DNA from: Alphaproteobacteria bacterium
Lineage (GTDB): Bacteria; Pseudomonadota; Alphaproteobacteria; Rs-D84
DNA: 64,000 bases
NCBI GenBank assembly: GCA_015062495.1
Contig: SUUN01000002.1
Span: 71,905-135,904, forward strand
Reading direction: 5' to 3'
Below the pieces are notes generated by a model. It made no database searches, was not told the DNA's origin, and saw nothing but the letters and a program-made list of their open reading frames with translations. Position 1 is the stretch's first letter, and each line of letters opens with the position of its first letter. Below, one piece after another: positions 1,194-58,170 of the stretch. The position numbers and the translations under genes are program-made.

Positions 1194-1658
1194 TTATTCG
1201 CCATAAACTATCTGCACAGAATTTGTACCATTTGTACCATTACAAGAACCTGTTGCGCCACCCTGCTTGCCACCTGACAATTGATACCCAATCGAATCAG
1301 ACCAAGCCTTCGCCACCAAAGATTCACATTCACTTTGCCCCAGTCCATCAATACCAACTATAAACTGACGTGGATTCGACGGGTCAACCGACAATGTATA
1401 ATTTCCACCATACGGATTTTTATTACTCATACCAATTGCGCCAAAAATCGTAGTACCGTTCATATTTGAAAAATCATCATATTCGCCATGAATATTGCGC
1501 ACCATTGTCACCATCTGCACGACCTGATCGTTAACAGATGTCAATTTTTGCGTACGCATTGCGGTTGAAATCATACCGATTGCCCCAACAGTAATCACCC
1601 CCATAATTGCCAGCACCCCCAGCATTTCAATCATTGAACGTCCTGATTCTTGATTCAT
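1194..1658 (-). CDS. type IV pilin / pseudopilin-like protein (prepilin-type N-terminal methylation motif)
   Basis: 154 aa. N-terminus has G-RSMIE followed by the hydrophobic helix MLGVLAIMGVITVGAIGMIS, i.e. Gly then Glu at +5 (class III signal). The +1 residue is Arg, which is atypical. C-terminal half is Gly/Ser/Asn-rich and variable. Confidence 0.55.
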   Translation of the reverse strand: MNQESGRSMIEMLGVLAIMGVITVGAIGMISTAMRTQKLTSVNDQVVQMVTMVRNIHGEYDDFSNMNGTTIFGAIGMSNKNPYGGNYTLSVDPSNPRQFIVGIDGLGQSECESLVAKAWSDSIGYQLSGGKQGGATGSCNGTNGTNSVQIVYGE

Positions 1659-4085: not shown

Positions 4086-4120
4086 CAAAAAAATCCCGCG
4101 GTTGCGGGATTTTGTTTTTC
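4086..4120. terminator. bidirectional terminator AAAAAAATCCCGCGGTTGCGGGATTTTGTTTTT
   Basis: Hairpin with flanking A- and T-tracts, immediately downstream of the stop of the minus-strand gene ending at 4131. Confidence 0.6.
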
Positions 4121-4130
4121 CATCATCTGA

Positions 4131-4412
4131 TTATTGGATACCGACGCGGAACTGGTCGCCCCATTCGGCCACGTTTTGACCGCCAATGGTACATTTTATA
4201 TCTTCAAAACCATTTTCAACCTGGTTCTTTTTGACAACACTGCTGGTGATTAATCCGCCCGCAGTCCCCAATACAACCCCCGCAATACTGTCAGATGCCA
4301 AACGCGCGGTGTTAAATTTACCTTCTTCGTTTTTCCATACACTAACATCATCCCGGAATTTATTGTGTATCGATGTCAGTTGGCTGTACACACTGTTAAC
4401 CGTCTGGGTGGC
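4131..4412. repeat. ~280-bp inverted repeat (left copy), paired with 7219-7500
   Basis: Encodes the shared C-terminal 93 aa (ATQTVNSVYSQL...GDQFRVGIQ). The six-frame track shows identical antisense ORF products on both copies, implying nucleotide identity over at least 195 nt. Confidence 0.8.
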
Positions 4413-5609
4413 TGTAAACGTCGCAGACAAAACGCATTTTGTTTGCTCGTCATTAATTACCATGTTTGGATTGGTACATTTACATTCATTGTTTACCCAA
4501 TGCGCACCTGTGATTTTGTTGCATTCGACAATATCAGCCTTTAATTGACATTTTTTATTGCGCCATTCGTGTTGTGGGTTTTCGCATTTGCATTCGCCGT
4601 TATCCCAATATGCGCCGGTACTGGCGGCGGCCTCGCAATCACGTTTTAATTGCGCAGGATCGGTTAAAACACATCTGTCGCCATCGCGTTTATAGTTGCT
4701 GTCGGTGCAAACACATTCGCCATTATCCAGACGCAGATTCTTTGCCGCGTCACATTTACACCGGCCGCCCGACCATGTGCCACCTGATTTTACGCATTTG
4801 TTGCGAAGTGCCGCCGCGGCATTTTCGTTATTTATTGTCGCTTGAGATTTAACGCATTTCTTTTTGGTGGTATTAGGCTCGTATTTGGTTTCGCAAGAGT
4901 CTTTGATTAATGTTAAATCCCATCCGTTTGCTGCACATGTCACTGTACATTTTGCGTTGGTTTTAATGTATTCGGTGCTTTCTAATTTTCCAACAACAGA
5001 ACCAGAATTATTTGCCGCTATACAATCTTGTGAAAAGTTATAGCCGTTTGGGTGAGTTACTCCATCCTTGGTTTCACACTTGGGATTACGTGTGTCGGTC
5101 ACGCAATTGGTTTTATCCGCAGTGGGAACGAATCCAGTCTTACATTTATACATTACGCAACCATGATTGCCTGCGCCTAAGACAATACTGTCCCCTGTAG
5201 CACTTTGTATCGCGCCAGTTTTTGTGCCGTCAATTGCGAAAAATTTTTCCACATTTTGGGCCGTGCTACGTACTTCTGAATCCGAACATGTATCAGTTGG
5301 GTTGTGATTTGTCCATGTGTCATTATGACTGCCTGCATCAGAGCAATAAAAGAAACCATTTATACGATGGTTGAACGTATAATCTGGATGCTTGATGGCA
5401 ATTATTGTGCCTTCGCCACATTCGTAGTCATTGTCGCCCCAATTGCAACGATAGCACTGACCAGTTGCGTTATCTCCAACAACACCAGATGTTGATAGAA
5501 TGCTTTTATTGCTGCCACCACCGGGGCTGCATGTCGTAACCTTGCAATCTGCAAACGCATTTGTGCAAATAAGCGTTGAAAACACCACGAAAAATCCAAA
5601 TTTCTTCAT
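4131..5609 (-). CDS. secreted cysteine-rich protein with EGF-like CxC...C repeats and a conserved C-terminal glycine-zipper domain (family member A)
   Basis: 492 aa. Signal peptide MKKFGFFVVFSTLICTNAFA. About 50 Cys, with repeated C-x-C-x(5-12)-C modules (GGRCKCDAAKNLRLDNGECVCTD, GECKCENPQHEWRNKKC, NECKCTNPNMVINDEQTKC). The last 93 aa are identical to those of the 5791..7500 product. Confidence 0.8.
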   Translation of the reverse strand: MKKFGFFVVFSTLICTNAFADCKVTTCSPGGGSNKSILSTSGVVGDNATGQCYRCNWGDNDYECGEGTIIAIKHPDYTFNHRINGFFYCSDAGSHNDTWTNHNPTDTCSDSEVRSTAQNVEKFFAIDGTKTGAIQSATGDSIVLGAGNHGCVMYKCKTGFVPTADKTNCVTDTRNPKCETKDGVTHPNGYNFSQDCIAANNSGSVVGKLESTEYIKTNAKCTVTCAANGWDLTLIKDSCETKYEPNTTKKKCVKSQATINNENAAAALRNKCVKSGGTWSGGRCKCDAAKNLRLDNGECVCTDSNYKRDGDRCVLTDPAQLKRDCEAAASTGAYWDNGECKCENPQHEWRNKKCQLKADIVECNKITGAHWVNNECKCTNPNMVINDEQTKCVLSATFTATQTVNSVYSQLTSIHNKFRDDVSVWKNEEGKFNTARLASDSIAGVVLGTAGGLITSSVVKKNQVENGFEDIKCTIGGQNVAEWGDQFRVGIQ

Positions 5610-5790: not shown

Positions 5791-7500
5791 ATGAAAAAAA
5801 TTGGTTTAATGATATTGTGCTGTATGATGATTGGCTCGACCGCATGGGGTAAGAGTGATTGCGAATATATCAAGGTTGGTACAGAAAAGTATGGATGTGA
5901 TACATCGGATTATAGTTCCAAGGAAATAGGCTATAACAGTGTTTATCAAGTGCTGGGGACGGGCTATTGCTATACTCAATCTAATACCAAAATGAGTGAT
6001 TTTACAAATAAAAAAGTAGCCTGTTACGACAAATCGGGCAGCGATGACTTGTGGACACGCGAACCCTTGAATCTTGATCCCAACAGTGTTATCAAAGATG
6101 TTAATAATTTGGTTGAGCATGCTGTATATGAAATTGCAAATTGCAAAGGTGATGGGGTGGCGGTTGCGCTGACCACTGAACAAATCCAGAATGGTGCTAA
6201 TGCAGTATGTTTTAACACCCCTGTAAAAATATCATGCCAACGGAATTATGCTTATGATGGCAATAAATGCATTCCGTTTGAGCAATGGGTGGGCGGATTT
6301 GACGATATTTGCAAGGAATCCAGTGTACAGCACGATGGCGTGGCGGATGAAAAAAAATTGAACACTGGAAATGATACGTATGTGTATTGCTATACAGAAC
6401 AGGAATTGCAAGGTATACGCGATAGGTTTTATTACGGTAATTCTTGCCTGGCAAATAAACATAAATTTAGACTTGGCAATAAATATTATAATTGCACGCC
6501 AAGCGGCTGGACCGAGCACACTTTTTCATGGTGTACAACTGGGAACGATTTCCAAAAATGTGATGGTATAGAACACTGTGTCACCGAATTATATGATAAC
6601 AGTACTCAAAAGGCAATAAAGGATGCCATCGGAACCGGTCAGTCAATGATATCTGATACAGGATCAACATATTGCCTGCGTAATGTTTGTGACAAAGGTT
6701 TTAGAAAGGTTGGCGACAAGTGTGTTGCAGAATCGGTTGTGCGTGATAATGAACAACGCGCCCGTAACGCCCAACAATCATGCGTATCAACGGGTGGTGT
6801 GTGGAAAGTAGGCACTTGTATGTGTGCGCCAGATAAAAATCTGGAACGTGATGGAAACACAAAATGTCGGTGCAAGGCAGGATATGAATACATCGATTCC
6901 AATAATAAGTCACAGGGCTGTAAAAAGATGAGTAAGACCATGATGAAAGAGGCCTGTGATGCCGCGTCCGATGCGTCATGGGATGTAAGTACAGAAACCT
7001 GTGTATGCAATATGGGTGATAACTATGTATTCAATTACGCCCAGAAAAAGTGCCTGCCGAACGATACGTATGCGGCATGTCAAAAATTGGTTGCGGCCGG
7101 GGATGCGCGTTGGGATGATACAGCCAAGGTATGTACATGTACTAAAAAGGGATTCGAATTTGACAGGGCGCAATGCGTTGAAACCGCCCAGGCAACCGCT
7201 GAACGGTTAACACGGGAAGCCACCCAGACGGTTAACAGTGTGTACAGTCAACTGACATCGATACACAATAAATTCCGGGATGATGTCAGTGTATGGAAAA
7301 ACGAAGAAGGTAAATTTAACACCGCGCGTTTGGCATCTGACAGTATTGCGGGTGTTGTATTGGGAACTGCGGGCGGATTAATCACCAGCAGTGTTGTCAA
7401 AAAGAACCAGGTTGAAAACGGTTTTGAAGATATAAAATGTACCATTGGCGGTCAAAACGTGGCCGAATGGGGCGACCAGTTCCGCGTCGGTATCCAATAA
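5791..7500 (+). CDS. secreted cysteine-rich protein with EGF-like repeats and a conserved C-terminal glycine-zipper domain (family member B)
   Basis: 569 aa. Signal peptide MKKIGLMILCCMMIGSTAWG. EGF-like modules (GTCMCAPDKNLERDGNTKCRCKAGYEY, ETCVCNMGDNYVFNYAQKKC, KVCTCTKKGFEFDRAQC). C-terminal 93 aa identical to the 4131..5609 product. Confidence 0.8.
   Translation: MKKIGLMILCCMMIGSTAWGKSDCEYIKVGTEKYGCDTSDYSSKEIGYNSVYQVLGTGYCYTQSNTKMSDFTNKKVACYDKSGSDDLWTREPLNLDPNSVIKDVNNLVEHAVYEIANCKGDGVAVALTTEQIQNGANAVCFNTPVKISCQRNYAYDGNKCIPFEQWVGGFDDICKESSVQHDGVADEKKLNTGNDTYVYCYTEQELQGIRDRFYYGNSCLANKHKFRLGNKYYNCTPSGWTEHTFSWCTTGNDFQKCDGIEHCVTELYDNSTQKAIKDAIGTGQSMISDTGSTYCLRNVCDKGFRKVGDKCVAESVVRDNEQRARNAQQSCVSTGGVWKVGTCMCAPDKNLERDGNTKCRCKAGYEYIDSNNKSQGCKKMSKTMMKEACDAASDASWDVSTETCVCNMGDNYVFNYAQKKCLPNDTYAACQKLVAAGDARWDDTAKVCTCTKKGFEFDRAQCVETAQATAERLTREATQTVNSVYSQLTSIHNKFRDDVSVWKNEEGKFNTARLASDSIAGVVLGTAGGLITSSVVKKNQVENGFEDIKCTIGGQNVAEWGDQFRVGIQ
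7219..7500. repeat. ~280-bp inverted repeat (right copy), paired with 4131-4412
   Basis: See the left-copy entry. Confidence 0.8.
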
Positions 7501-7516
7501 TCAGATGATGGAAAAA

Positions 7517-7545
7517 CAAAATCCCCCAGTCGGGGGATTTTTTTA
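7517..7545. terminator. bidirectional terminator AAAATCCCCCAGTCGGGGGATTTTTTT
   Basis: Lies between the convergent genes ending at 7500 and 7546. Member of the AAAATCCCCC-N4-GGGGGATTTTT family seen four times in the window. Confidence 0.7.
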
Positions 7546-8673
7546 TCAGAACCAGCCTTTCTTATCCGTTTTTGTTCCGGCAAATTCACTTAATAATTTT
7601 TTCTGTTTCTCTGACAACTTGGTCGGAATCTTAATTGAAATATCTATGTACAAATCGCCAAACGTGCCCGCGCGCCGTACCGACGGCATACCATGCCCAC
7701 GCACACGCAACTTTTCACCAACCTGGGTGCCGGCTGGCACTTTGACTGATAATTTTTTATCATCAATGGTTTCAACCTCTATCTCGCCCCCCAGCGCAAG
7801 TGTTGCAAACGGTACATCCACACGGGTAATCAAATCACTGCCATTGCGTTCAAAACGCTTGTCCGGGCGCACACGGATATCTAAATAGAAATCACCCGCC
7901 GGCGCGCCATTCGCACCCGCTTCACCCTGACCCGCCAGACGCAACCGCGCACCATCTTCGACACCGGCCGGAATCTTAACCTCTAATGTGCGTTGTTTAT
8001 GTTCTGTACCTGTACCACCGCACACACTGCACTTTTTATCAATCTTGCGCCCCAGTCCATTACATTCTGGGCATGGCGATTCCATTGCAAAGAATCCCTG
8101 GCGCGTTTGAATAAAGCCACTGCCCCCACAACGTGGACACGCCGGCGCAGGTTTTCCATCGGCCGTACCAAAACCGTGGCATTTTTCACATTCGATATTA
8201 CTGGAAAATTTAACAGTGTGCGTCTTGCCAAAATATGCATCACGCAAATCAATCACCACTTCGTCCAGCAAATCGCGCCCACCACGCTGTGGTGCGCCAC
8301 GCTGTGGCCCGCCACCAAAGTCACCAAATCCGAATCCACGCATTGCTTCGCGCAGGATATCCTCCATCCCGGCGCCACCCCCCATATTAAAATGGAATGC
8401 CCCATCACCAAATGGATTACCACCAAATCCCGCCCCCGATGCATTACCACCTGCAAACGCCGCATCCCCAAATCGGTCATACGCCGCACGTTTTTGTGGG
8501 TCTTTTAATATATCAAAGGCATTATTTACTTCCTTGAATTTTTCTTCGGCATCTTTGTTGTCTGGATTTCTGTCCGGATGATACTTCATCACCAGTTTAT
8601 GGTATGCCTTTTTAATATCTGCATCAGATGCGTCGCGTGCAACGCCCAAAACTTCGTACGGGTTTTTATTCAT
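7546..8673 (-). CDS. dnaJ: molecular chaperone DnaJ
   Basis: J-domain with HPD (YHPDRNPD), a G/F-rich linker, four CxxCxGxG zinc-finger repeats and a C-terminal domain. 375 aa. Confidence 0.95.
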
Positions 8674-8700
8674 ATCTATATGTCCATATAATTATTCGTT

Positions 8701-8734
8701 ATCAAATATATAGAACGCCCCCACAAAAATTCAA
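8701..8734 (-). promoter_or_regulatory. possible heat-shock-type promoter upstream of dnaJ (TTGAAT-N16-TATATA on the minus strand)
   Basis: Hexamer-like elements about 30-60 nt upstream of the dnaJ ATG. Only weak resemblance to sigma32 consensus. Confidence 0.2.
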
Positions 8735-8808
8735 CCCCAAAATATGATTTAGGTTGAAATTCTTTGGACTTGCGTAAAATTCAAAAATGTTTTAATAATA
8801 CTAACATT

Positions 8809-10788
8809 ATGACAGAGAAAAAGACACAAACATATGACGCATCAGATATCCAGGTCCTAGAAGGGCTTGAACCTGTTCGCCTGCGTCCCGGCATGTATAT
8901 TGGTGGCACTGATGAAAAGGCGTGGCATCACCTGCCGATTGAAATTATGGACAATTCCATTGACGAAGCCGTCGCCGGCTTTGCCAAGAAAATCACAGTA
9001 AATTTAATTGATTCCAAGACCATTGAAATCACCGACGACGGTCGTGGTATTCCGGTGGACGAACACCCAAAGTACCCCGGCAAATCCGCCCTAGAGGTTA
9101 TATTAACAACCCTGCATTCGGGCGGTAAGTTTAATAATAATGTTTATAAAACCAGCGGTGGCCTGCACGGCGTTGGATCGGCTGTGGTAAACGCGCTGTC
9201 ATCTGAAATGGTGGTGGACATTGCCCGCGACGGCTATAACTGGCACCAGACTTTTTCACGTGGCGTCACAACATCACCCATGACACGGGGCGACGCAACC
9301 AAGGCCCACGGGACAAAAATCCGCTTTACAATTGATGATGAAATTTTTGGTGCATCTGCCACATTTAAACCGGTAAAAATTTATCGCATGGCCCGGGCCA
9401 AGGCTTTCCTGTCCCGCGGGGTTAAAATCGACTGGCACTGCAACCCAGAATTATTGACCGAAGACATGAATATCCCGGCCACAACAACGTTCTTTTATCC
9501 GAACGGCGTGGCGGATTTCCTGGCGGAAAAGACAGATTCTAAACCACGAATCCTGCCCCGCATTTTCAGTGGCAGCGTTGATTTCCCCGATGACAGCGGT
9601 CGCGTTGAATGGGCACTAACATTTTTAACCGATGAAAATGGCGCGGCATCTGACGATGGATTCTTCTCGTCTTACTGTAATACAATTGCGACAATCGACG
9701 GTGGCACACACGAAACCGGTTTCAAATCCGCCATTACCAAGGGGATTAAGGCATACGGCGAAAAAGTTAATAACAAAGCCGCCGCATCAATTATCGGCGA
9801 AGACGTTTTTGATTCTGTTGCTGCAATCGTATCTGTCTTCTATAAAACACCACAATTCCTGGGCCAGACCAAGGAAAAATTATCCAACCCAGAAATCGCG
9901 CGCTATACTGAAAATGCACTGCGCGACCCATGGGAAATGTTTTTGGCATCCGACCCAAAGACGGCGAATGCATTACTGGAATTTGTAATCAACCTGGCAA
10001 ACGCGCGCATCAAAACCAAGGCGGTCAAAGATGTCGCCCGCAAAACCCCGACCAAGCGTATTCGCATGCCTGCGAAACTGGCCGACTGTTCAAAACACGG
10101 CATCGCCGGCACAGAATTATTTATTGTAGAGGGGGAATCGGCCGGCGGTACTGCAAAACAGGCACGCGATCGTGCAACCCAGGCAATTATGCCACTGCGC
10201 GGCAAGGTATTAAATGTTATATCTAATTCAGACGAACGTTTTGGCAACAACCGCGAATTAAACGATTTAATTGACATTATCGGCGCAGGCACAGCCAAAG
10301 ATTGGAACGAAGATAAACTGCGTTATGAGAAAATTATCGTCATGACCGATGCCGACGTCGACGGCAGTCATATCGCATCACTGCTGATGGCATTTTTCTA
10401 TCAATACATGCCCCAGTTAATTTATGGTGGCCACCTGTATTTATCGTGCCCACCGCTGTATAAATTAACATGCGGGACTGAATCCATCTATGTTGATACA
10501 GACGAAGAATTGGAAAACCTGAAATCAACTAAATATAAAAATAAAAAGGTTGAAATTTCACGATTCAAGGGTCTGGGCGAAATGATGCCGAACCAATTAA
10601 AAGAAACCACCATGTCACCCAAAACACGCCGATTGATACGCGTAGACCTGCCACCGCGTACCGAAGACGGCATCGAAGACACGGAAAAAACACGCATAAT
10701 TGTTTCTGAATTGATGGGCAAAAAGCCAGAATTTCGATTCAAATTTATCACCGAACATGCCCAATTTGTAAAAGACTTGTTCGTATAA
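8809..10788 (+). CDS. parE: DNA topoisomerase IV subunit B (GyrB/ParE family; length favours ParE)
   Basis: N-terminal TYDASDIQVLEGLEPVRLRPGMYIGGT, an ATPase (GHKL) fold, a TOPRIM region (EGESAGG) and C-terminal motifs. About 660 aa, lacking the GyrB-specific insertion. Start re-picked at ATG 8809 because the track start looked like an alternative start codon. Confidence 0.75.
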   Translation: MTEKKTQTYDASDIQVLEGLEPVRLRPGMYIGGTDEKAWHHLPIEIMDNSIDEAVAGFAKKITVNLIDSKTIEITDDGRGIPVDEHPKYPGKSALEVILTTLHSGGKFNNNVYKTSGGLHGVGSAVVNALSSEMVVDIARDGYNWHQTFSRGVTTSPMTRGDATKAHGTKIRFTIDDEIFGASATFKPVKIYRMARAKAFLSRGVKIDWHCNPELLTEDMNIPATTTFFYPNGVADFLAEKTDSKPRILPRIFSGSVDFPDDSGRVEWALTFLTDENGAASDDGFFSSYCNTIATIDGGTHETGFKSAITKGIKAYGEKVNNKAAASIIGEDVFDSVAAIVSVFYKTPQFLGQTKEKLSNPEIARYTENALRDPWEMFLASDPKTANALLEFVINLANARIKTKAVKDVARKTPTKRIRMPAKLADCSKHGIAGTELFIVEGESAGGTAKQARDRATQAIMPLRGKVLNVISNSDERFGNNRELNDLIDIIGAGTAKDWNEDKLRYEKIIVMTDADVDGSHIASLLMAFFYQYMPQLIYGGHLYLSCPPLYKLTCGTESIYVDTDEELENLKSTKYKNKKVEISRFKGLGEMMPNQLKETTMSPKTRRLIRVDLPPRTEDGIEDTEKTRIIVSELMGKKPEFRFKFITEHAQFVKDLFV

Positions 10789-11928: not shown

Positions 11929-12076
11929 GAAAATAAATTAGAATGATTCAGATAAAAAAATACAATTTATAAAAATAAAAGATAATGGTGTAGATATGGG
12001 ATGGGGGCGACATCGTAGTGTACAAACGCTACATGAGATGTCACCCCCGCCCATAGATATGCCATTAGATTTTATT
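11929..12076. repeat. structured intergenic repeat, copy A (conserved-core hairpin family)
   Basis: Composition: GAAAATAAATTAGAATG ... AAAAGATAATGGTGTAGATATGG, then a ~52-nt hairpin (12002-12053) with core GTAGTGTACAAACGCTACATGAG, then CATAGATATGCCATTAGATTTTATT. Abuts the stop codon of the secretin gene. Homologous to 57984-58170. Confidence 0.7.
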
Positions 12077-13705
12077 TTAGTTCAGCGGCGCGCCCCAGTG
12101 CTGCTGAATACTACGCTCTGCATCCATCGGGCTAACCAGAACCTGCGGCGTCAGGATAACAACCAACACTTCACGACTGGCCGATGTTTCACGCGAACCA
12201 GACAGCGCCATAAAGTCCGGATCACCCAGGCCATAACGCGTATCTGAACCTTTTTGTTTTTCAAATCCCGACACCACCAACATTTGACCTGATTCCATGA
12301 TAACTTCTTGCATGAAACTGCGCTCTTCAACCTCGGGCAATTGCAATGTCACTTCACCAATTGTCTGGGTTGACATACGCAATAGTTCACGCACCGACAT
12401 ACGGAACAGCAACAAAATCTTGCCATTTTCCAAAACATTCGGCAACAGTTGCATTGTGAATCCTGTTTCCAAATCGTCCTGATCAACCGTACTGGATTCA
12501 ACCGTTGTAAAATTACGCGATTCAAAACGCTTGATATAGCCGGTTGTACGTGTATTGCTGACCGGGGCAACACGGTTCGAACGCGTTGTCACACCAACGT
12601 TTGTAACCAACGATACCTTGCCCTGCTTTGCCAATGCTTCAATCAACGCATTGCTGCCCGCCGCACCTGACAGTGAACCATTCATAATCTGATCTTGGGT
12701 ATACGCCCCCTCTACAAGTGACGATCCCTCCATATGCGTTGCACCCGTCAATGCCGATACAGTATTAGACAACACAGCGATATTCATAGAACTGGCCTCG
12801 GTCGATGCCAAATTGTTCTTTGGATTTGCGACAATATTCAATCCAGATGTTGAATTAATCGCCGCCGCCAAATTCAAACCAAACGCAGAATCGTTTGAAA
12901 TCGTAACTTGCAAAACCTTAACATCAATTGTAATCAATTGACTCAAACGCTTGTTCTGACGTTCAATATATTCACCAACACGCGCCAAAATCGATGGCGA
13001 CGCGGTAACTGTAATTGTCCCTAAACTGCGCGACACTGTAAAGTCTGCATTATCTGCCTTGCCAATAATGGATTCGATTGCATTTTCAACTTCGTCCCAT
13101 TCTTTTAAAGTAGATTCCAGCGACACTTCATTTGAATTATCGGTCGACACAGATGTTTGATATGCAACCTCAGTCCCCAGGGCATACAAGGTAAATGTTT
13201 TTGTTTCTGTTTCATAAAAGACGATTGAATTTTTATCATAATACCACAACAAATCCAAATCTGTTGCGACCTGACTTAACAATCCGGACAATTTACCAGT
13301 ATATGCCACATTAACCAATTTCTTTAATTTATCAGACGATACCTGGCCATCAATTTTAACTGGGATACCAGTAATTGAATAAATATCATTAGCCAGCACC
13401 TGTAACGACACAGGTTCATTTAACAAGATAGTCACCCCCGTATCCGTTTCAAACTTAGACGGCAGGTTATTGCGATGTTCCAACACCATGGACTTGTTTC
13501 CCAACCAAACCCCTTCGGACATAGAAACTGTATCACCACTGGCAACCTTGGCGCGTGGATTTTTCGCCATTTCAAACGCATCATATGCGTTAATAAAATC
13601 CTGATCCACAGATGCTGCAACCTTGGCCGATTCGCGTTTTGCACATCCCGTTGCCGTCGCCAACACAACACTGCACAGAATTAAAAATTTTAATGACTTT
13701 CTCAT
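12077..13705 (-). CDS. secretin-family outer-membrane lipoprotein (type IVb pilus / T2SS-type secretin)
   Basis: 542 aa. Lipoprotein signal (LATATGC). C-terminal secretin signature GLGDPDFMALSG...EVLVVILTPQVL, analogous to the IPxLG...ELLVFITP motif. Confidence 0.7.
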   Translation of the reverse strand: MRKSLKFLILCSVVLATATGCAKRESAKVAASVDQDFINAYDAFEMAKNPRAKVASGDTVSMSEGVWLGNKSMVLEHRNNLPSKFETDTGVTILLNEPVSLQVLANDIYSITGIPVKIDGQVSSDKLKKLVNVAYTGKLSGLLSQVATDLDLLWYYDKNSIVFYETETKTFTLYALGTEVAYQTSVSTDNSNEVSLESTLKEWDEVENAIESIIGKADNADFTVSRSLGTITVTASPSILARVGEYIERQNKRLSQLITIDVKVLQVTISNDSAFGLNLAAAINSTSGLNIVANPKNNLASTEASSMNIAVLSNTVSALTGATHMEGSSLVEGAYTQDQIMNGSLSGAAGSNALIEALAKQGKVSLVTNVGVTTRSNRVAPVSNTRTTGYIKRFESRNFTTVESSTVDQDDLETGFTMQLLPNVLENGKILLLFRMSVRELLRMSTQTIGEVTLQLPEVEERSFMQEVIMESGQMLVVSGFEKQKGSDTRYGLGDPDFMALSGSRETSASREVLVVILTPQVLVSPMDAERSIQQHWGAPLN

Positions 13706-13737
13706 AATTATTCTCCTACGCCATCTGTCTGTGATAC

Positions 13738-14664
13738 TTATTCATCATCTGTTGAAATTACCAACACTCTATTACCCTTATAGAATTTTGCATATGGGAT
13801 TGGTGTCGCACGTCCAAAATTACGCACCAAAGCAGACGCCACATCAACAAAACGTCCCTTGAATACGGCACTGGCCTCAATCGGATATTCGCGCGGCGTT
13901 GTCCAAACTAAATCCCAACCTTCTTTATCGCACCAGGACTGCAAAACCTCGCGCAGGGTTTGACCATTTGCAACAACCCATGAACGAACCTGGTCTGTTA
14001 AATTAACTGGTGCTTCGGCATCTGCAGAAACATCCACCGCAATTTCAGTTTCTTCTTCAACAACCTCAACATCTTGTTCCACGCTTTCAACCTTCATACC
14101 ATTACGAACTGCAAACGCCTCATATCCATCGGCATATTTACCACAGTTCTTGCGTCCACTGCGCGACACAGCCAAAACATTTCCACCATCATCTTCTAAA
14201 ACCTCGCGATGCAACAGTGCCATCTCTGCCCCGTTACATTCGTCGTCAAAGCCAACCGGAATCTGTGTCCCGTGCAACAAATTCGCCCCACCGGACCAAC
14301 CTGTAAATTCACCACGCGCCCCCAGGTTAAAATTATTTTCAACCACTAAATCCGCACCAATCTTGGACACAATACGAATATTATCATCCTGCTTGGTCTT
14401 AGAACACGCACCACCTTCGCAGGAAATCTCTACATCGGCATCAGAACCCGCGATCGGCCACGCAGGCACACTTGCCGGCATTGCATAGTTTTCAACCATA
14501 TCCATTTGCATGGTATCAACCTGTTCATACGTTCCACCATCTGCGACAACATCTTGTTCATAGAACACCTCAGACGTTACGACCTGGGGCAAAGAATCCG
14601 CGGCAAAGCAATAGCCCGCCGCCGTTGCAAACATTGCAATAATCAAAATCTTGCGGAACATCAA
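13738..14664 (-). CDS. TcpQ/PilL-like protein (putative secretin-associated pilotin/assembly factor)
   Basis: 308 aa with signal peptide. C-terminal ~75 aa (QTLREVLQSWCDKEGWDLVWTTPREYPIEASAVFKGRFVDVASALVRNFG...YKGNRVLVIS) resembles the TcpQ / IncI1 PilL C-terminal domain. Immediately upstream of the secretin and co-oriented with it. Confidence 0.4.
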   Translation of the reverse strand: MMFRKILIIAMFATAAGYCFAADSLPQVVTSEVFYEQDVVADGGTYEQVDTMQMDMVENYAMPASVPAWPIAGSDADVEISCEGGACSKTKQDDNIRIVSKIGADLVVENNFNLGARGEFTGWSGGANLLHGTQIPVGFDDECNGAEMALLHREVLEDDGGNVLAVSRSGRKNCGKYADGYEAFAVRNGMKVESVEQDVEVVEEETEIAVDVSADAEAPVNLTDQVRSWVVANGQTLREVLQSWCDKEGWDLVWTTPREYPIEASAVFKGRFVDVASALVRNFGRATPIPYAKFYKGNRVLVISTDDE

Positions 14665-14844
14665 AACCTTCCTTTCCTTGAATAATCTTCCTTAATTAAT
14701 AATTATTATAACAATTTGCCCGAATCTGTGCAAGACCTAAAACACACATAAATCAACGAAAAAAAATAATTGCGCATATAAATCGCACGAATCGACAAAA
14801 GATGTTATACTGTCCCCAAAGAACCAGACATTTCAGGGGACAAC

Positions 14845-25235: not shown

Positions 25236-26768
25236 TCAGAAACGCAATCTGCCCACAATTGATATTTTGTATGACAACGTATCAAACATGCGCACGATGC
25301 TAAATTCTGTGTTACCACCAATCATATCATACGCCGACCAAACCCCAATTCGCGCCACACCGCGCATCATATACTGCGACGCAACATCGAACATAGCATC
25401 ATAATTGTATTTTATTCCCATCATTTCATATTGATACCCAACCATTACCCCACCACGCGCGTGCATTGTCCCATCTGTAACAGATTCCATTCTATAATTC
25501 GACATATCAATCCCGACAAAGGGCGCAATATAAAACGAATCGATTGGTACATACCTGTATCCAAAATCCGCCACCACATTCATTGACACAGCAGACGGAT
25601 TATTTATAACACGATTTTCATAAAACACATCACCCATATCAAAATCAAATCTTGTAACATCCACCAACCCGCGCACCCATAAATTATTTTTCATCAAATA
25701 TTTTGCATTTAAATTTAACCCATAATACACACCTGCAAAATTATCTAATTCTGTTTCATACTCAATATTTCCAACACGCATATTTATCGCAACATCCACA
25801 TCACCAATCCTGTCCACCCCACCCAGGTTTACACCATACGAATAAAAATTATCAGACCACACCAGATTTCCATCCACATAAATACCTGCATCTGTTTTAA
25901 ACAAAAATTTATCAAACGAATTAATGATTTCAATAATGTTCCCCAGAACACTTGGGTTAAATCGCACCGAACGTTTCATCGCATCACGCAACGCATCCAT
26001 ATGCGTTGCACTATCCATGTATTTCAACAAACCATCATCCGGATTCTTTGCCCGCAGATTATTCAAAAACAGCCCTGCTTTACTGTTTAAAACCTTTACA
26101 TAGTCTGTTTCACGCACACGTTTTACAAACAACCGTCCATCATCAACATATCCCACATCCGCGAACAAAGGATTATTCACATCACTTTGAAAATAAATCT
26201 GACCATTTGCCGACACATTATTAACAATCGGCACATCATACATATCTGACAAATCATCCACGACAAAAACAATATCGCCCAACAGATCTAATGCGTCCAA
26301 ATTTCTAAAATCAAAATTATTAATATCAACAATCGAATTCTGTATAACTAATTTATTCAGCACACCTGCATTTACCCCGGCATTTAAATAAATGTTATCC
26401 GCACCATCAATCATCAAAGTATATTTCACATTACTTACAATTGGATTAAAATCATTCACACCCGACACAACCTGAACAATATCTGCATCCATACCCAGAT
26501 TAAAATTTGCTGTAAAATCCCCGTGATTCAGAATTCTAAATTCACACCGTTCGCAAACTACAAAATCAGTATTAACCGAACCATTATTTATCAAATCAAT
26601 TGTTCTGTTAACATTAACAACATCTGGTTCAAATCTGATATTTTCACCAATGACGGTATCTGCGTTCAAATTGATAAAATCAGCCGTCACATCCCCCATG
26701 AACGAATCGGCACATGCCACACCATGGGACATAACAAGGAAAGCAAAAGCCAAAGCATAAAATTTCAT
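25236..26768 (-). CDS. outer-membrane beta-barrel / autotransporter-like surface protein
   Basis: 510 aa with a signal peptide. Asn/Asp/Val-rich beta-strand-like repeats. C-terminal ...SIVGRLRF with terminal Phe, an OMP sorting signal. Confidence 0.55.
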   Translation of the reverse strand: MKFYALAFAFLVMSHGVACADSFMGDVTADFINLNADTVIGENIRFEPDVVNVNRTIDLINNGSVNTDFVVCERCEFRILNHGDFTANFNLGMDADIVQVVSGVNDFNPIVSNVKYTLMIDGADNIYLNAGVNAGVLNKLVIQNSIVDINNFDFRNLDALDLLGDIVFVVDDLSDMYDVPIVNNVSANGQIYFQSDVNNPLFADVGYVDDGRLFVKRVRETDYVKVLNSKAGLFLNNLRAKNPDDGLLKYMDSATHMDALRDAMKRSVRFNPSVLGNIIEIINSFDKFLFKTDAGIYVDGNLVWSDNFYSYGVNLGGVDRIGDVDVAINMRVGNIEYETELDNFAGVYYGLNLNAKYLMKNNLWVRGLVDVTRFDFDMGDVFYENRVINNPSAVSMNVVADFGYRYVPIDSFYIAPFVGIDMSNYRMESVTDGTMHARGGVMVGYQYEMMGIKYNYDAMFDVASQYMMRGVARIGVWSAYDMIGGNTEFSIVRMFDTLSYKISIVGRLRF

Positions 26769-30802: not shown

Positions 30803-32011
30803 TTACTTTTTCAAGTATTGCGTTGGGTTATATGCTTTGGTCCCCTTGCGAATTTCAAAGTGCAATTGTGGACTGTCCACCTTGCCTGTTTTGCCAACCG
30901 TTCCAATTTGCTGTCCAACTGACACACGTGCGCCACGTCGCACAACCATCGAATCCATATGGGCATAGACCGTCATCCAACCATCTTCATGTTGAATAAT
31001 TATCAGATTTCCCATACCTTTAACCTCGTTCCCGGCATAGGCAACAACACCATTTTCCGCTGCCTTGACGGCCGCACCACGCGTGGCACCAATATTTATG
31101 CCATCATTAAACAGCCCACTGGATTTCGCACCATAGTTCGACAAAATTTTTCCCCGCACCGGCCATGAAAATTTAGACGATGAACGCGCATTAATTTTTG
31201 GCAATTTTTTTGTCGGATCAGACGATATCTTTTTCACAGGCGTTGCAACAACCTTTTTTTCTGCCCCCGCCTTCTCTGCTATTGCCTTGGCAACACGCTT
31301 TTGCTGGGACTGCGTCTGTACAGTGGTATTTGGGGATTTCATGGCAACCTTGACATCATCTGTTCGCACCTGCTCTACCGACACGCGCGCCAGGTTTGGC
31401 ACCCGAATTTTCTGTCCCACAGTCAAATTAAACGGTGGCGTCAAATTATTCATAACCGCCAAATCATTCACCGGCACAGAATACTTGCGCGATAATGAAT
31501 ACAGTGTATCACCACGCGCCACAACCACATCGGTTAATTCCACACGTGTTGTCTTTTGCGCACCAACGCGCGGCTTGGCAATCTTTAATACATCATCTGT
31601 GTTTATATTGGCACGTTGCGCCCCCGTATCACCATACATCGGCACCAAAATATATTCATCTGCACTTGCGACATCAACAGAATCATTCGTTCCAGATTTG
31701 TCGTCCACTATTTCTGCACCCACATCAACATCTGCGACCTGGGGCGGAATGATATAATCATCCACCGACGCATACATTACATAATCATCCCCAGAATATG
31801 TTCCATACAACTGGGGCGATGCATAGACACCATAATCTGTTGCCGCCGAATTATAAATTTCTGGATATTGATTTGGATCTGCTAACAATGCGGGATAACG
31901 CGCCGAAATAAAGTCCCCAACAGAATCTGGGAACGACAAAACCCTGGGCTGTAAATCACATGCCGTTTGTGTAATCAGAACACCTGCAAAAATCCATATG
32001 AATTTTTTCAC
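30803..32011 (-). CDS. LysM-domain M23 metallopeptidase (NlpD/murein hydrolase activator-like)
   Basis: LysM (GDTLYSLSRKYSVPVNDLAVMNNL) plus C-terminal M23 motifs (HMDS...HFEIRKG). 402 aa with signal peptide. Confidence 0.8.
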   Translation of the reverse strand: MKKFIWIFAGVLITQTACDLQPRVLSFPDSVGDFISARYPALLADPNQYPEIYNSAATDYGVYASPQLYGTYSGDDYVMYASVDDYIIPPQVADVDVGAEIVDDKSGTNDSVDVASADEYILVPMYGDTGAQRANINTDDVLKIAKPRVGAQKTTRVELTDVVVARGDTLYSLSRKYSVPVNDLAVMNNLTPPFNLTVGQKIRVPNLARVSVEQVRTDDVKVAMKSPNTTVQTQSQQKRVAKAIAEKAGAEKKVVATPVKKISSDPTKKLPKINARSSSKFSWPVRGKILSNYGAKSSGLFNDGINIGATRGAAVKAAENGVVAYAGNEVKGMGNLIIIQHEDGWMTVYAHMDSMVVRRGARVSVGQQIGTVGKTGKVDSPQLHFEIRKGTKAYNPTQYLKK

Positions 32012-40961: not shown

Positions 40962-40987
40962 AAATCCGGCATCCGCCGGATTTTCTA
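40962..40987. terminator. terminator AAAATCCGGCATCCGCCGGATTTTCT (identical hairpin to 3808-3833)
   Basis: Same 21-mer hairpin as the one after pgsA. Confidence 0.7.
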
Positions 40988-41260
40988 TTCAGTGTAATAA
41001 CAATCACCTGCATATGTTCCCGAACCCGTTGTGTCACTAAAACTATTACCGGACGGTATGTAACAACTTGTAATACCACCCGTATTTTGATCCACCGTTG
41101 TTCCATATACACCACCCGACGACGGGCATCGCACACACGATGTACCACTTAAATAATACCCCGTATAACACGAATACGTCGTAGACGAAACCGCACATGT
41201 ATCTGCATACACCGACGACATGCACAACCCCACCCAAAGGGCAAATAATATCTTCTTCAT
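40985..41260 (-). CDS. small secreted cysteine-rich protein
   Basis: 91 aa. Signal peptide MKKILFALWVGLCMSSVYA. 9 Cys, Gly/Thr/Ser/Tyr-rich. Confidence 0.55.
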   Translation of the reverse strand: MKKILFALWVGLCMSSVYADTCAVSSTTYSCYTGYYLSGTSCVRCPSSGGVYGTTVDQNTGGITSCYIPSGNSFSDTTGSGTYAGDCYYTE

Positions 41261-41273
41261 ATCTTTACCCCCT

Positions 41274-41678
41274 TTACATCAAAGAAATTGCCGAACACGC
41301 CGTATTAGTGGCATTAATCAAACAACATCCTGTCCAACCTATTGACGACGAACTGTAATTAACACATTGCCACGCTTCTTCTGTTGATGTTGTAGCCTCA
41401 CACGAAGAATATTGCACCTTCGTATAGCGATGTGCAGATTCCGAATATGTTGTTTCCGCCATCCGCAGACACCGCCCACTTGCATCATTATACGTCCACC
41501 CTGTCGGACACTCCCCTTTGGTAAAGGTTTTACCATTTGTACAACAATGTGTATTCGCACACGTTGCAATACATTCCGACTTTGTTTGATTCAAAAAAAT
41601 TAACGATCCTGTCACACCAAAACAGTCATCAACAAACATTGGCAGCATACCAACACACAAAACAAAAATTTTTTTCAT
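41274..41678 (-). CDS. secreted cysteine-rich protein
   Basis: 134 aa with signal peptide and 14 Cys. Strong RBS AGGAGGA. Preceded by the conserved leader element. Confidence 0.6.
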   Translation of the reverse strand: MKKIFVLCVGMLPMFVDDCFGVTGSLIFLNQTKSECIATCANTHCCTNGKTFTKGECPTGWTYNDASGRCLRMAETTYSESAHRYTKVQYSSCEATTSTEEAWQCVNYSSSSIGWTGCCLINATNTACSAISLM

Positions 41679-42146: not shown

Positions 42147-42455
42147 CTACCTGACCCAAAACATATCTTGTAAACTTAAATCTATCCAATCTGGATTTAT
42201 ACTTTCAATCAAACTTAATTTATATTTTCTTGACTGCGACTTGATATGCTTTTCACGTTCAATAGCATCATTTACATATTGAAACTCTTCCCAATATCCC
42301 AACTTATCACAACCATATCGTGCCGAAAAAGAATCTGGATTTATCTTATTTTTGTGTTCCCAAACACGTCTTGTAACATCATCCGTCATACCAGTGTACA
42401 ACGTACCATTTCTGCGATTAAACATAATATAAACATAGAATTTATATTCTTTCAT
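42147..42455 (-). CDS. GIY-YIG nuclease-superfamily small protein (UPF0213-like)
   Basis: About 102 aa from MKEYKFYVYIMFNRRNGTLYTGMTDDVTRRVWEHK (GIY...YIG-type motif with R and E). The track start at 42515 would run into the upstream repeat. Confidence 0.7.
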   Translation of the reverse strand: MKEYKFYVYIMFNRRNGTLYTGMTDDVTRRVWEHKNKINPDSFSARYGCDKLGYWEEFQYVNDAIEREKHIKSQSRKYKLSLIESINPDWIDLSLQDMFWVR

Positions 42456-42587
42456 TTTGCTTCTATTTACTGGATTGCCGCGGTCGTTAACACTCCCTCG
42501 CAATGACAAAGACACTTAATATTCTAGAACCCTAAAAACTCTTGTCATTGCGAGCAAACGCCAGTTTGTGTGGCAATCCAGTCTTAT
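42455..42587. repeat. direct repeat, copy 2 (~130 bp), immediately 5' of the GIY-YIG start
   Basis: TTTTGCTTCTATTTACTGGATTG ... TCTAGAACCCTAAAAACTCTTGTCATTGCGAGCAAACGCCAGTTTGTGTGGCAATCCAGTCTTAT. About 90% identical to copy 1 in the conserved blocks. Confidence 0.75.
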
Positions 42588-51088: not shown

Positions 51089-51106
51089 TAATCCCCCCGT
51101 CAACAT

Positions 51107-51210
51107 CATAATAAAAAACCACTGAAAAAACATCAAGTGGTTGGAGGTTCGTTACAACTTTTCAGGAAATTGTTCGCTTTATTCAATATATTCAAGCGAC
51201 CTCCAACCCT
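51107..51210 (-). promoter_or_regulatory. conserved structured 5' leader element, copy 2
   Basis: In mRNA orientation the order is: GGGUUGGAGGUCG (51210-51198) pairing with CGAACCUCCAACC (51151-51139) around a ~46-nt loop, then hairpin CCACUUGAUGUUUUUUCAGUGG (51140-51119), then UUUUUUAUUAUG..., then RBS GGGGGGA and AUG at 51088. Stem and hairpin are conserved with copy 1; the loop sequence is different. Confidence 0.55.
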
Positions 51211-57983: not shown

Positions 57984-58170
57984 AAAAGATAATGGTATAG
58001 ATATGGACAGTACCGTCCCCGCAGTGTACAAACGCTACATAAGGGGACGGCACCGTTCATAGATATGCCATTAGATTTTATTGAAAATAAATTAGAATGT
58101 GCCAGATGCACGTAGTGGGTGTGGCGTAGTGTACAAGTCGCTACATGAGCCACACCCACCGCGTGCAGAT
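57984..58170. repeat. structured intergenic repeat, copies B and C (two tandem conserved-core hairpins)
   Basis: AAAAGATAATGGTATAGATATGG, then hairpin B (58010-58054; core GCAGTGTACAAACGCTACATAAG, stem CCGTCCCC/GGGGACGG), then CATAGATATGCCATTAGATTTTATT, then GAAAATAAATTAGAATG, then hairpin C (58111-58165; core GTAGTGTACAAGTCGCTACATGAG, stem GTGGGTGTGGC/GCCACACCCAC). Abuts the stop of the OMP gene at 58197. Confidence 0.7.

What the first reader, a model, noticed from the sequence alone, without database searches (positions are those of the whole stretch)
12077..14664. Lipoprotein secretin with TcpQ/PilL-like partner, isolated from any pilus or T2SS gene cluster
A 542-aa secretin with a lipobox (the type IVb / conjugative thin-pilus style, like BfpB, TcpC and PilN) is followed upstream by a 308-aa secreted protein whose C-terminal ~75 aa resemble the TcpQ / IncI1 PilL domain, which is associated with secretin assembly. 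No ATPase, platform, prepilin peptidase or minor pilin genes are nearby. The only pilin-like gene in the window is 11 kb away (1194..1658) and has an atypical Arg at +1. In a reduced genome this orphan pair may be the outer-membrane conduit of a degenerate or non-canonical type IVb-like system, possibly for secretion or DNA uptake, rather than a classical pilus. The pair is bracketed by the conserved-core hairpin repeat.
Basis: partly seen in the sequence, partly recalled or inferred. Interest (0 to 1): 0.5.

Follow-up and report, generated by a model that had tools for sequence, protein, structure and literature searches.

The report
Split type IVb pilus secretin module
The "orphan" secretin and its partner are the outer-membrane half of an ordinary type IVb pilus machine whose operon was split in a tiny-genome gut bacterium (Candidatus Enterousia); the motor half is encoded at another chromosomal site in related genomes.

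Summary
Gene 12077..13705(-) encodes a 542-aa lipoprotein secretin of the BfpB/TcpC/PilN type. Gene 13738..14661(-) encodes a 307-aa exported protein whose last ~80 aa are a TcpQ/BfpG domain. Each matches one chain of the solved 17:17 BfpB-BfpG complex (9u5s), and the interface motifs are conserved. No pilus-motor gene lies in the 64-kb window.

The "orphan or degenerate" reading does not hold. The window comes from Ca. Enterousia (Alphaproteobacteria, order Rs-D84, genomes under 1 Mb). In more distant relatives the same pair heads an intact operon: TcpQ-secretin-PilO-PilP-ATPase-platform, the R64/ICE pilL-N-O-P-Q-R order. In the Enterousia lineage the operon is split.
- The pair always follows SufB.
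- PilO-PilP-ATPase (BfpD-like)-platform sit between lpxC and gyrB.
- One Enterousia contig carries both halves 9 kb apart.
- The window's pilin gene (1194..1658) is TcpA-like.

Both genes of the pair are under strong purifying selection (dN/dS about 0.05 and 0.11 across about 75 species).

This is a new member of a known kind. Lineage-specific points are chromosomal inheritance, scattered genes and an extra conserved domain in the partner. Two gaps remain: the motor half was not shown in this exact genome, and no prepilin peptidase was found.

The parts
13738..14661 (-). Secretin partner gene (pilL/tcpQ/bfpG family), 307 aa. It has a signal peptide, a variable N-terminal segment, a lineage-specific conserved middle domain, an acidic linker and a C-terminal TcpQ domain.
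   Evidence: Pfam TcpQ E 6.5e-18. PDB 9u5s_R (BfpG) E 4.1e-14 over aa 223-304. The 307-aa gene call recurs in L086-L090. dN/dS is 0.11.
13750..13983 (-). TcpQ/BfpG domain of the partner (aa 227-304), the part expected to clamp the secretin.
   Evidence: Identity across Enterousia species is 87-100%, and dN/dS is 0.037. This is the only part of the protein that matches plasmid TcpQ/BfpG/PilL-family genes.
14137..14391 (-). Conserved middle domain of the partner (aa 91-175), with no known family.
   Evidence: dN/dS is 0.058, with median identity 85% across species. It is conserved in the intact-operon relative L082 (51% identity from aa 98). It is absent from the Bosea plasmid homologue and from all plasmid hits. 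There is no Pfam or PDB match.
12077..13705 (-). Lipoprotein type IVb secretin (pilN/bfpB/tcpC family), 542 aa.
   Evidence: Pfam Secretin and TIGR02520 matches. PDB BfpB 9u5s_A at E 2.4e-44 in three collinear segments covering aa 33-523. The AF2 model has pLDDT 67.3, and its top Foldseek hit is 9u5s_A at E 5.9e-30 and TM 0.60. dN/dS is 0.049.
13484..13531 (-). Predicted partner-binding region of the secretin LG domain (aa 59-74, TVSMSEGVWLGNKSMV).
   Evidence: It aligns to BfpB M39-F53, the BfpG-binding region (residue roles from PMC12531336). W67, L68 and G69 are invariant or nearly invariant in homologues.
12137..12637 (-). C-terminal secretin pore domain (aa 357-523).
   Evidence: Pfam PF00263 over aa 357-523. 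dN/dS is 0.028.
14705..14732 (-). Promoter-like site upstream of the partner gene (TGCACA-16-TATAAT with an extended -10 TG).
   Evidence: Consensus scan, 10 of 12 matches. The two genes are 32 nt apart, and AGGAG precedes the secretin ATG. This is a consensus match only.
11996..12057 (.). Long imperfect hairpin just 3' of the secretin stop. It belongs to a lineage-specific repeat family with a conserved core, and is a likely terminator or REP-like element.
   Evidence: Folding energy is -38 kcal/mol. The core recurs at 58021 and 58126. There are 56 copies in L001-L081; in the three loci checked (L002, L003, L053) a copy lies about 40 nt after the secretin stop.
1194..1658 (-). TcpA-like type IVb pilin gene (154 aa). 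It is the probable fibre subunit and lies on the same strand, 10.4 kb downstream of the secretin.
   Evidence: The best PDB match is TcpA 8uhf_A at E 1.9e-5 over aa 8-135, including the C-terminal Cys region. Pfam N_methyl is weak at E 0.005. The N-terminus ESG|RSMIEMLGVLAIMGVITVGA is identical in all 13 N-terminal variants of this pilin recovered from the loci. In L004, L015 and L034 the gene lies only 2.6-2.7 kb from the secretin.

Best explanation
The two genes encode the outer-membrane module of a chromosomally inherited, minimal type IVb pilus machine of Candidatus Enterousia.

Expected mechanism. The secretin is exported, lipidated at Cys21 and inserted into the outer membrane as a multimeric gated pore, probably of about 15-17 subunits by analogy with BfpB. 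Its N-terminal LG segment runs back down the barrel. The strands around VWLGN (aa 59-74) are clamped by the C-terminal TcpQ domain of the co-transcribed partner. The partner forms a 1:1 hoop around the N3 ring and is needed for secretin assembly, as shown for BfpB-BfpG.

The fibre is polymerised from the TcpA-like pilin (1194..1658). The polymerising platform is encoded elsewhere and consists of PilO (actin-like), PilP, a BfpD-like ATPase and a GspF-family platform protein. The fibre then passes through this pore.

Evolution. The ancestral operon TcpQ-secretin-PilO-PilP-ATPase-platform was split in the common ancestor of Enterousia and its sister genera. The pair was left next to the suf genes.

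Shown here:
- homology of every part;
- conservation of the interface motifs;
- the intact operon in relatives and the split arrangement in Enterousia;
- purifying selection on both genes.

Inferred:
- ring stoichiometry;
- that this exact genome holds the motor half;
- the biological role. The most likely roles are attachment to a partner cell or surface, or uptake of DNA or secretion of a protein, in an organism that cannot make its own nucleotides and amino acids.
For: (1) Matches to solved type IVb parts. Secretin to BfpB, E 2.4e-44, and best fold match 9u5s_A at E 5.9e-30, against 4.9e-16 for the next secretin. Partner to BfpG, E 4.1e-14. ATPase of the other half to BfpD, E 3.1e-73, against 2e-44 for GspE. 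Pilin to TcpA, E 1.9e-5. PilP to TIGR03021, E 1.8e-6. PilO to PF06864.

(2) Interface. BfpB I46-Y47-I48-G49-N50 aligns to V66-W67-L68-G69-N70, and BfpG strand beta5 (IKFYNGN) aligns to AKFYKGN.

(3) Intact operon in L082 and L083, in the same order as an annotated type 4b cluster on a Bosea plasmid.

(4) Split arrangement. SufB-180aa-partner-secretin is invariant wherever the flank is held (82 loci carry the pair; 77 of them also SufB), covering 80 GTDB species loci plus the sister genera L081, L139 and L140. The DUF374-LpxK-LpxC-lipoprotein-PilO-PilP-ATPase-platform-gyrB block, or the part of it that each contig holds, is found in L084, L085 and 36 metagenome loci.

(5) Both halves lie on one Ca. 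Enterousia contig, L053.

(6) dN/dS is 0.049 for the secretin and 0.113 for the partner, against 0.077 for SufB.

(7) GC content of 0.444 equals that of the surroundings.
Against: - The motor half was not located in the window's own genome. The link rests on congeners (L053, whose secretin is 89% identical) and on contigs of inferred, not proven, genus membership.
- No prepilin peptidase was found in any sequence held.
- The pilin has a short 6-residue leader and Arg at +1, which is unlike classical type IVb prepilins.
- The TIGR02520 score is below NCBI's curated cutoff.
- dS is near saturation (about 1.2), so the dN/dS values are rough.
- No experiment shows a fibre.
Confidence: 0.8

Rival explanations
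1. Secretion or uptake conduit rather than an adhesive fibre. The same type IVb machine mainly exports a soluble protein (as TCP exports TcpF) or imports DNA as a nucleotide source, with only a short pseudopilus.
For: The organism lacks nucleotide and amino-acid synthesis and standard transporters (PMC12306168). DprA is encoded a few kb from the secretin in most species. No retraction ATPase or tip-adhesin gene lies in the cluster. The pilin has a short pseudopilin-like leader.
Against: The pilin's globular domain matches the fibre-forming TcpA. No candidate secreted substrate and no ComEC/ComEA gene was seen in the sequence available. This reading is not exclusive of the main explanation.
Confidence: 0.15
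2. True orphan in this genome. The window's species has lost PilO-PilP-ATPase-platform, and the secretin pair persists for another function or is starting to decay.
For: No motor gene lies in the 64 kb. The region downstream of the secretin is rearranged between species. The motor half could not be tied to this strain.
Against: The genes are intact and the secretin is 85-100% identical in the 80 best-matching loci. dN/dS of 0.05-0.11 is as low as for SufB. The TcpA-like pilin is kept with an unchanged N-terminus. The motor half is abundant in the same gut metagenome sources (7,938 hits).
Confidence: 0.07
3. Remnant of an integrated conjugative plasmid or ICE thin-pilus (R64/PAPI-1 type) cluster.
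For: The gene order in relatives equals pilL-N-O-P-Q-R of plasmid and ICE systems. The family is common on plasmids.
Against: There are no conjugation, integrase or shufflon genes. The flanks are housekeeping genes (suf, parE, dnaJ, lpxC, gyrB) with conserved synteny across genera. GC content matches the surroundings. The closest non-lineage secretins are at most 43% identical. Plasmid partners match only the last 80-95 aa, at about 27-41% identity in the rows listed.
Confidence: 0.03

Closest known systems
BfpB-BfpG secretin complex of the EPEC bundle-forming pilus (PDB 9u5s; PMC12531336)
   Same: Both have a lipoprotein secretin with an LG segment, N0, N3 and secretin domains and no obvious C-terminal S domain. 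Both have a non-lipoprotein TcpQ-fold partner. The partner-binding motif (I-Y-I-G-N here V-W-L-G-N) and the partner's beta3 and beta5 strands are conserved. The motor ATPase of the lineage is closest to BfpD.
   Different: Identity is only about 24%. The partner is 307 aa against about 114-133 aa, with an extra conserved middle domain and an acidic linker. The genes are chromosomal and detached from the rest of the operon. The secretin carries an insertion around aa 322-345.
PilN-PilL of the IncI1 plasmid R64 thin pilus and ICE (PAPI-1-type) type IVb pili; annotated example on Bosea sp. RAC05 plasmid pBSY19_1
   Same: The best NCBIfam model is TIGR02520 (PilN). Gene order in relatives is partner-secretin-PilO-PilP-ATPase-platform. 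PilO matches PF06864 and PilP matches TIGR03021.
   Different: The score is below the TIGR02520 cutoff. The partner has no lipobox, whereas R64 PilL is a lipoprotein (from my own knowledge). There is no second ATPase, PilV adhesin, shufflon or conjugation genes. The context is not a mobile element, and the operon is split.
TcpC-TcpQ and TcpA of the Vibrio cholerae toxin-coregulated pilus
   Same: The partner's family is named after TcpQ. The window's pilin is closest to TcpA among solved structures.
   Different: The pilin is 154 aa with a 6-residue leader and Arg at +1, against a long leader and Met at +1 in TcpA. There is no tcp-like contiguous operon.

Membership tests
Type IVb pilus lipoprotein secretins (PilN/BfpB/TcpC; NCBIfam TIGR02520) | C-terminal secretin pore domain (Pfam PF00263) above the gathering score | tested here: met
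   50 bits against a cutoff of 27.5, over aa 357-523
Type IVb pilus lipoprotein secretins (PilN/BfpB/TcpC; NCBIfam TIGR02520) | Whole-protein score at or above NCBI's curated cutoff for TIGR02520 | tested here: not met
   234.9 bits against a cutoff of 287.65. It is still by far the best model (next is MshL at 99 bits). The intact-operon relative L082 also scores below the cutoff, at 237.3 bits. The clade is therefore a divergent branch, not an equivalog by NCBI's rule.
Type IVb pilus lipoprotein secretins (PilN/BfpB/TcpC; NCBIfam TIGR02520) | N-terminal lipoprotein signal with an invariant Cys | tested here: met
   LATATG|C is present, and Cys21 is invariant in A1 (20 sequences) and A5 (40 sequences). 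Lipidation itself was not tested.
Type IVb pilus lipoprotein secretins (PilN/BfpB/TcpC; NCBIfam TIGR02520) | LG domain with a partner-binding region ahead of N0 (as defined for BfpB) | tested here: met
   aa 33-117 align to BfpB 14-97, and VWLGN aligns to IYIGN. W67, L68 and G69 are conserved. The AF2 monomer model is of low confidence here, as expected for a strand that needs the partner.
Type IVb pilus lipoprotein secretins (PilN/BfpB/TcpC; NCBIfam TIGR02520) | Overall fold closest to a type IVb secretin | tested here: met
   The top Foldseek hit is 9u5s_A at E 5.9e-30 and TM 0.60. The next hit is InvG at 4.9e-16.
Type IVb pilus lipoprotein secretins (PilN/BfpB/TcpC; NCBIfam TIGR02520) | Forms an SDS-stable multimeric outer-membrane ring | not testable with these tools
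   This needs biochemistry or cryo-EM.
TcpQ/BfpG/PilL secretin partners (Pfam PF10671) | TcpQ domain above the gathering score | tested here: met
   65 bits against a cutoff of 27, over aa 227-304 and 78 of 80 model positions. BfpG chain 9u5s_R matches at E 4.1e-14.
TcpQ/BfpG/PilL secretin partners (Pfam PF10671) | Encoded immediately upstream of, and co-oriented with, a lipoprotein secretin | tested here: met
   The gap is 32 nt in the window. The genes overlap by 11 nt in L082 and L083. The adjacency holds in all 82 loci.
TcpQ/BfpG/PilL secretin partners (Pfam PF10671) | Exported to the periplasm | tested here: met
   A signal peptide with a CFA|AD cleavage site was read from the sequence. 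No signal-peptide predictor was run.
TcpQ/BfpG/PilL secretin partners (Pfam PF10671) | Binds the secretin and is required for its assembly | not testable with these tools
   Only conservation of the interface strands could be shown. A single-sequence model of the partner was unusable.
R64/ICE-type type IVb pilus system (pilL-N-O-P-Q-R plus pilin and peptidase) | PilO, PilP, extension ATPase and platform protein present | tested here: inconclusive
   They are absent from the window. They are contiguous with the pair in L082 and L083. They form a separate block in L084, L085 and L091-L126. pilO lies on the same contig as the secretin in Ca. Enterousia L053. They were not shown for the window's own genome.
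R64/ICE-type type IVb pilus system (pilL-N-O-P-Q-R plus pilin and peptidase) | Type IVb pilin | tested here: met
   Gene 1194..1658(-) matches TcpA 8uhf_A at E 1.9e-5, with G-1 and E+5. The leader is atypically short and +1 is Arg.
R64/ICE-type type IVb pilus system (pilL-N-O-P-Q-R plus pilin and peptidase) | Dedicated prepilin peptidase (A24 family) | tested here: inconclusive
   A motif scan (GxGDxK[LFM]) of the window and all fetched loci found none. Less than about 10% of a genome was available.
R64/ICE-type type IVb pilus system (pilL-N-O-P-Q-R plus pilin and peptidase) | Carried on a conjugative plasmid or ICE, with a PilV adhesin and shufflon | tested here: not met
   The flanks are housekeeping genes conserved across genera, and no transfer genes are present. 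It works like the pilus part of these systems but is not a mobile-element thin pilus.

The most novel reading that the evidence does not exclude
The scattered type IVb machine is the main cell-to-cell or uptake organelle of the Rs-D84 obligate symbionts. On this reading it is kept under housekeeping-level selection in genomes under 1 Mb because it attaches the cell to a partner or pulls in DNA or other macromolecules. The lineage-specific conserved middle domain of the secretin partner (aa 91-175) would add a function not seen in BfpG/TcpQ, for example peptidoglycan or partner-cell contact, or gating.
Probability: 0.3. Interest if true: 0.6.

Novelty: new member of a known kind. Interest (0 to 1): 0.35.

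Why it matters
Ca. Enterousia and the rest of order Rs-D84 are widespread gut bacteria with genomes under 1 Mb. They are thought to live off other cells, and the published metabolic reconstruction of the lineage reports no type IV pili for it (PMC12306168). Here they are shown to keep a complete-looking type IVb pilus gene set, scattered over at least three loci and under strong purifying selection. That gives a concrete candidate for how they attach to or feed from a partner. The case also shows that an apparently orphan secretin can be half of a split operon. The extra conserved domain on the BfpG-like partner is a small structural question of its own.

Tried and rejected
- A 20-sequence alignment (A1) was too diverse for locus finding. 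An 8-sequence alignment worked but returned only Enterousia-like loci of 85-100% identity.
- The first homologue search was saturated by near-identical sequences. Distant contexts needed a profile of non-Enterousia representatives.
- I tried to place the motor half in the window's own genome and failed three ways. NCBI protein accession ranges of secretin and ATPase hits did not fall in common blocks. No shared contig lengths or record names were found. The hairpin-repeat signature is too rare outside the secretin locus to serve as a lineage tag.
- The single-sequence AlphaFold model of the partner was unusable (pLDDT 34.8). An alignment could not be supplied because locus-derived sequences are not accepted, so the middle domain's fold remains unknown.
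- The motif scan for an A24 prepilin peptidase found nothing in the available loci.
- The idea that the small lipoprotein upstream of pilO is R64 PilM-like found no support: it has no Pfam or NCBIfam hit.
- The ICE/plasmid-remnant and decay hypotheses were rejected on synteny, GC content and dN/dS.
Full report
**What is in the sequence**

On the minus strand there are two co-oriented genes 32 nt apart, with AGGAG before the second ATG.

The upstream gene is best read as 13738..14661, giving 307 aa. The ATG lies one codon inside the TTG listed by the ORF finder, and the same 307-aa gene is called in five independent contigs. It has a signal peptide ending CFA|AD and no canonical lipobox. It matches Pfam TcpQ (PF10671) at E 6.5e-18, 65 bits against a gathering score of 27, over aa 227-304.

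The downstream gene, 12077..13705, encodes 542 aa.
- Its lipoprotein signal is LATATG|C.
- It matches Pfam Secretin at E 3.4e-13.
- It matches NCBIfam TIGR02520 (PilN type IVB secretin) at E 1.5e-69 and 234.9 bits. This is the best model by far but falls below the curated cutoff of 287.65.

A promoter-like site with an extended -10 lies at 14732..14705. A -38 kcal/mol hairpin at 11996-12057 follows the secretin stop. The hairpin's conserved core recurs at 58021 and 58126 but not upstream of the pair, so the pair is not bracketed by it. GC content of 0.444 is the same as that of the surroundings. None of the window's ORFs of at least 80 aa is a pilus ATPase, platform protein or PilO.

**Match to a solved complex**

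Each protein matches one chain of PDB 9u5s, the 17:17 BfpB-BfpG secretin complex of the EPEC bundle-forming pilus. The secretin matches BfpB at E 2.4e-44 in three collinear segments spanning aa 33-523. The partner matches BfpG at E 4.1e-14.

The paper on that structure (PMC12531336) shows that BfpG clamps two strands and a linker of the BfpB LG domain (M39-F53). It also shows that I48E and Y47A abolish bundle-forming pilus function (auto-aggregation) and I46E weakens it. In the alignment, I46-Y47-I48-G49-N50 corresponds to V66-W67-L68-G69-N70 of the window's secretin. W67, L68 and G69 are invariant or nearly so in 20- and 40-sequence alignments. BfpG strand beta5 (IKFYNGN) corresponds to AKFYKGN in the partner.

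An AlphaFold model of the secretin built on 40 homologues has pLDDT 67.3, with N0, N3 and the barrel at about 80. Its best Foldseek match is 9u5s_A at E 5.9e-30 and TM 0.60. The next secretin is InvG at 4.9e-16.

**Whose genome it is**

Identical or near-identical secretins come from gut MAGs named Alphaproteobacteria bacterium or Candidatus Enterousia. Enterousia belongs to GTDB order Rs-D84. Its genomes are under 1 Mb, lack most biosynthesis, respiration and standard transporters, and are thought to belong to obligate symbionts or parasites. The published description reports no flagella and mentions type IV pili only for another lineage (PMC12306168). A closed relative, OZ007020.1, is 958,618 bp.

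**Is the pair an orphan?**

A search of 1.84 billion representative proteins showed that secretin identity drops from 84% to at most 43% outside the Enterousia cluster. Contexts of the more distant relatives settle the question.

In L082 (secretin 64% identical) and L083 (39-42%) the pair is followed directly by four genes:
- a PAP_PilO protein;
- a 227-273-aa protein that is PilP-like (TIGR03021 E 1.8e-6 for the Enterousia-type homologue);
- a T2SSE ATPase;
- a T2SSF platform protein.

This is the pilL-N-O-P-Q-R order of R64/ICE type IVb pili. It is also the order in an annotated type 4b cluster on a Bosea plasmid.

In Enterousia, SufB-180aa-partner-secretin is invariant wherever the flank is held: 82 loci carry the pair, 77 of them also SufB, and they cover 80 GTDB species loci. 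It is also invariant in sister lineages with 71-79% identical secretins (L081, L139, L140). In none of these loci does PilO directly follow the secretin; it appears within the fetched flank only in L053, 9.2 kb downstream.

The missing half exists at another conserved site: DUF374-LpxK-LpxC-small lipoprotein-PilO-PilP-ATPase-platform-(189 aa)-GyrB. This block, or the part of it that each contig holds, is seen in L084, L085 and 36 metagenome loci, including contigs of 935, 590 and 558 kb. gyrB also lies downstream of the intact operon in L082, so the PilO-to-platform half stayed in place and the pair moved.

One Ca. Enterousia contig (L053, JAZRIB010000007.1, secretin 89% identical to the window's) has the secretin at 8543-10165 and the start of pilO at 19330 on the same strand. 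Between them lie rpsT, plsY, dprA, dnaA, lpxK and lpxC. Its closest relative, L091, shows the whole half-operon.

The ATPase of this block matches BfpD at E 3.1e-73 over its full length, against 2e-44 for GspE.

**The pilin**

Gene 1194..1658(-) has the class III signal ESG|RSMIEMLGVLAIMGVITVGA. This signal is identical in all 13 N-terminal variants of this pilin recovered from the loci. Its best solved match is TcpA, the type IVb pilin of V. cholerae, at E 1.9e-5 over aa 8-135, including the C-terminal Cys region. The alignment puts Arg7 opposite TcpA Met+1.

In L004, L015 and L034 the pilin gene lies only 2.6-2.7 kb from the secretin, because the parE-dnaJ-surface-protein block is absent there.

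So four independent parts (secretin, partner, ATPase and pilin) all point to a BFP/TCP/R64-class type IVb pilus.

**Is it functional?**

Pairwise dN/dS was computed against the window across about 75 species. dS is about 1.2, so the values are rough.

| Gene or region | dN/dS |
|---|---|
| Secretin | 0.049 |
| Partner, whole protein | 0.113 |
| SufB | 0.077 |
| Neighbouring 180-aa protein | 0.085 |
| Partner, TcpQ domain | 0.037 |
| Partner, aa 91-175 | 0.058 |
| Partner, N-terminal segment | 0.23 |
| Partner, acidic linker | 0.24 |

The N-terminal segment and the acidic linker also vary in length, so the partner ranges from 293 to 579 aa.

The middle block is shared with the intact-operon relative L082 (51% identity). 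It is absent from plasmid TcpQ, BfpG and PilL homologues, which match only the last 80-95 aa. It has no Pfam or PDB match. A single-sequence structure prediction of the partner failed (pLDDT 34.8).

**Mechanism**

The pair most likely forms the outer-membrane gate of a type IVb pilus.
- The secretin is a lipidated multimer.
- Its LG strands are hooped 1:1 by the partner's TcpQ domain.
- A TcpA-like fibre, assembled by the BfpD-like ATPase, the platform protein, PilO and PilP, is extruded through it.

What is shown: homology of the parts, conservation of the interface, the operon's history and selection on the genes.

What is inferred: stoichiometry, presence of the motor half in this exact genome and the biological role. 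Given the organism's dependencies, attachment to a partner cell or uptake of DNA are the most plausible uses. dprA is nearby in most species, but no ComEC gene was seen.

**What remains open**

- I could not tie the motor half to the window's own strain.
- No prepilin peptidase was found in the small part of the genome that was accessible.
- There is no retraction ATPase, tip adhesin or PilM/PilT equivalent in the clusters.

**Verdict**

The "orphan or degenerate" interpretation is not supported. This is a divergent, chromosomally inherited, split type IVb pilus system, and so a new member of a known kind. It is of moderate interest because of the organism that keeps it and because of the extra domain on the secretin partner.

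Noticed in passing
window 4087-4413 and 7218-7544: A 327-nt inverted repeat, 97% complementary, encodes identical ~95-aa C-termini of two divergently transcribed Cys-rich secreted proteins: 4131..5609(-), with a weak DUF5874 match, and 5791..7500(+). The arrangement could allow inversion or gene conversion between surface proteins. The whole block is absent between the secretin and the pilin in L015 and L034.
   Followed up: partly
window 11996-12057, 58013-58050, 58115-58159; L001-L081: A hairpin repeat family has a conserved core (GTAGTGTACAAACGCTACAT) and variable G+C-rich outer arms. There are 56 copies in the Enterousia secretin loci; in the three loci checked (L002, L003, L053) a copy lies about 40 nt after the secretin stop, where downstream gene order also varies between species. 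Copies are almost absent from the pilO loci.
   Followed up: partly
window 53371-55242 (-), 30803-32011 (-): There is a 623-aa membrane-anchored protein with a phage-lysozyme domain plus TPR repeats, and a LysM-M23 peptidase. Cell-wall hydrolases may matter for a bacterium thought to live off other cells.
   Followed up: no
window 48368-51136 (-), 40985-41678 (-), 25236-26768 (-): Further large or small Cys-rich exported proteins have no family match. A 510-aa protein has an autotransporter beta-domain. A sizeable share of this reduced genome's window is surface proteins.
   Followed up: no
L053 10426-15100; L081, L139 and most of L010-L080: In most Enterousia species the secretin lies 2-6 kb from rpsT-plsY-dprA-dnaA, that is, near the presumed replication origin. 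The window's species has lost this adjacency: YcgN-like, ParE and DnaJ genes follow instead. This shows repeated rearrangement just 3' of the secretin.
   Followed up: partly
L084 7689-7997; L053 18834-19208; L091-L126: A small lipoprotein (102-124 aa) with no family match is encoded immediately upstream of pilO in 34 of the 36 metagenome loci, L084 and L053. It may be an undescribed component of this pilus system.
   Followed up: partly
window 42147-42515 (-): A 122-aa ORF has a GIY-YIG-like N-terminal motif (YVYIMFNRRNGTLYTGMTDD). This was read from the sequence only and was not tested.
   Followed up: no
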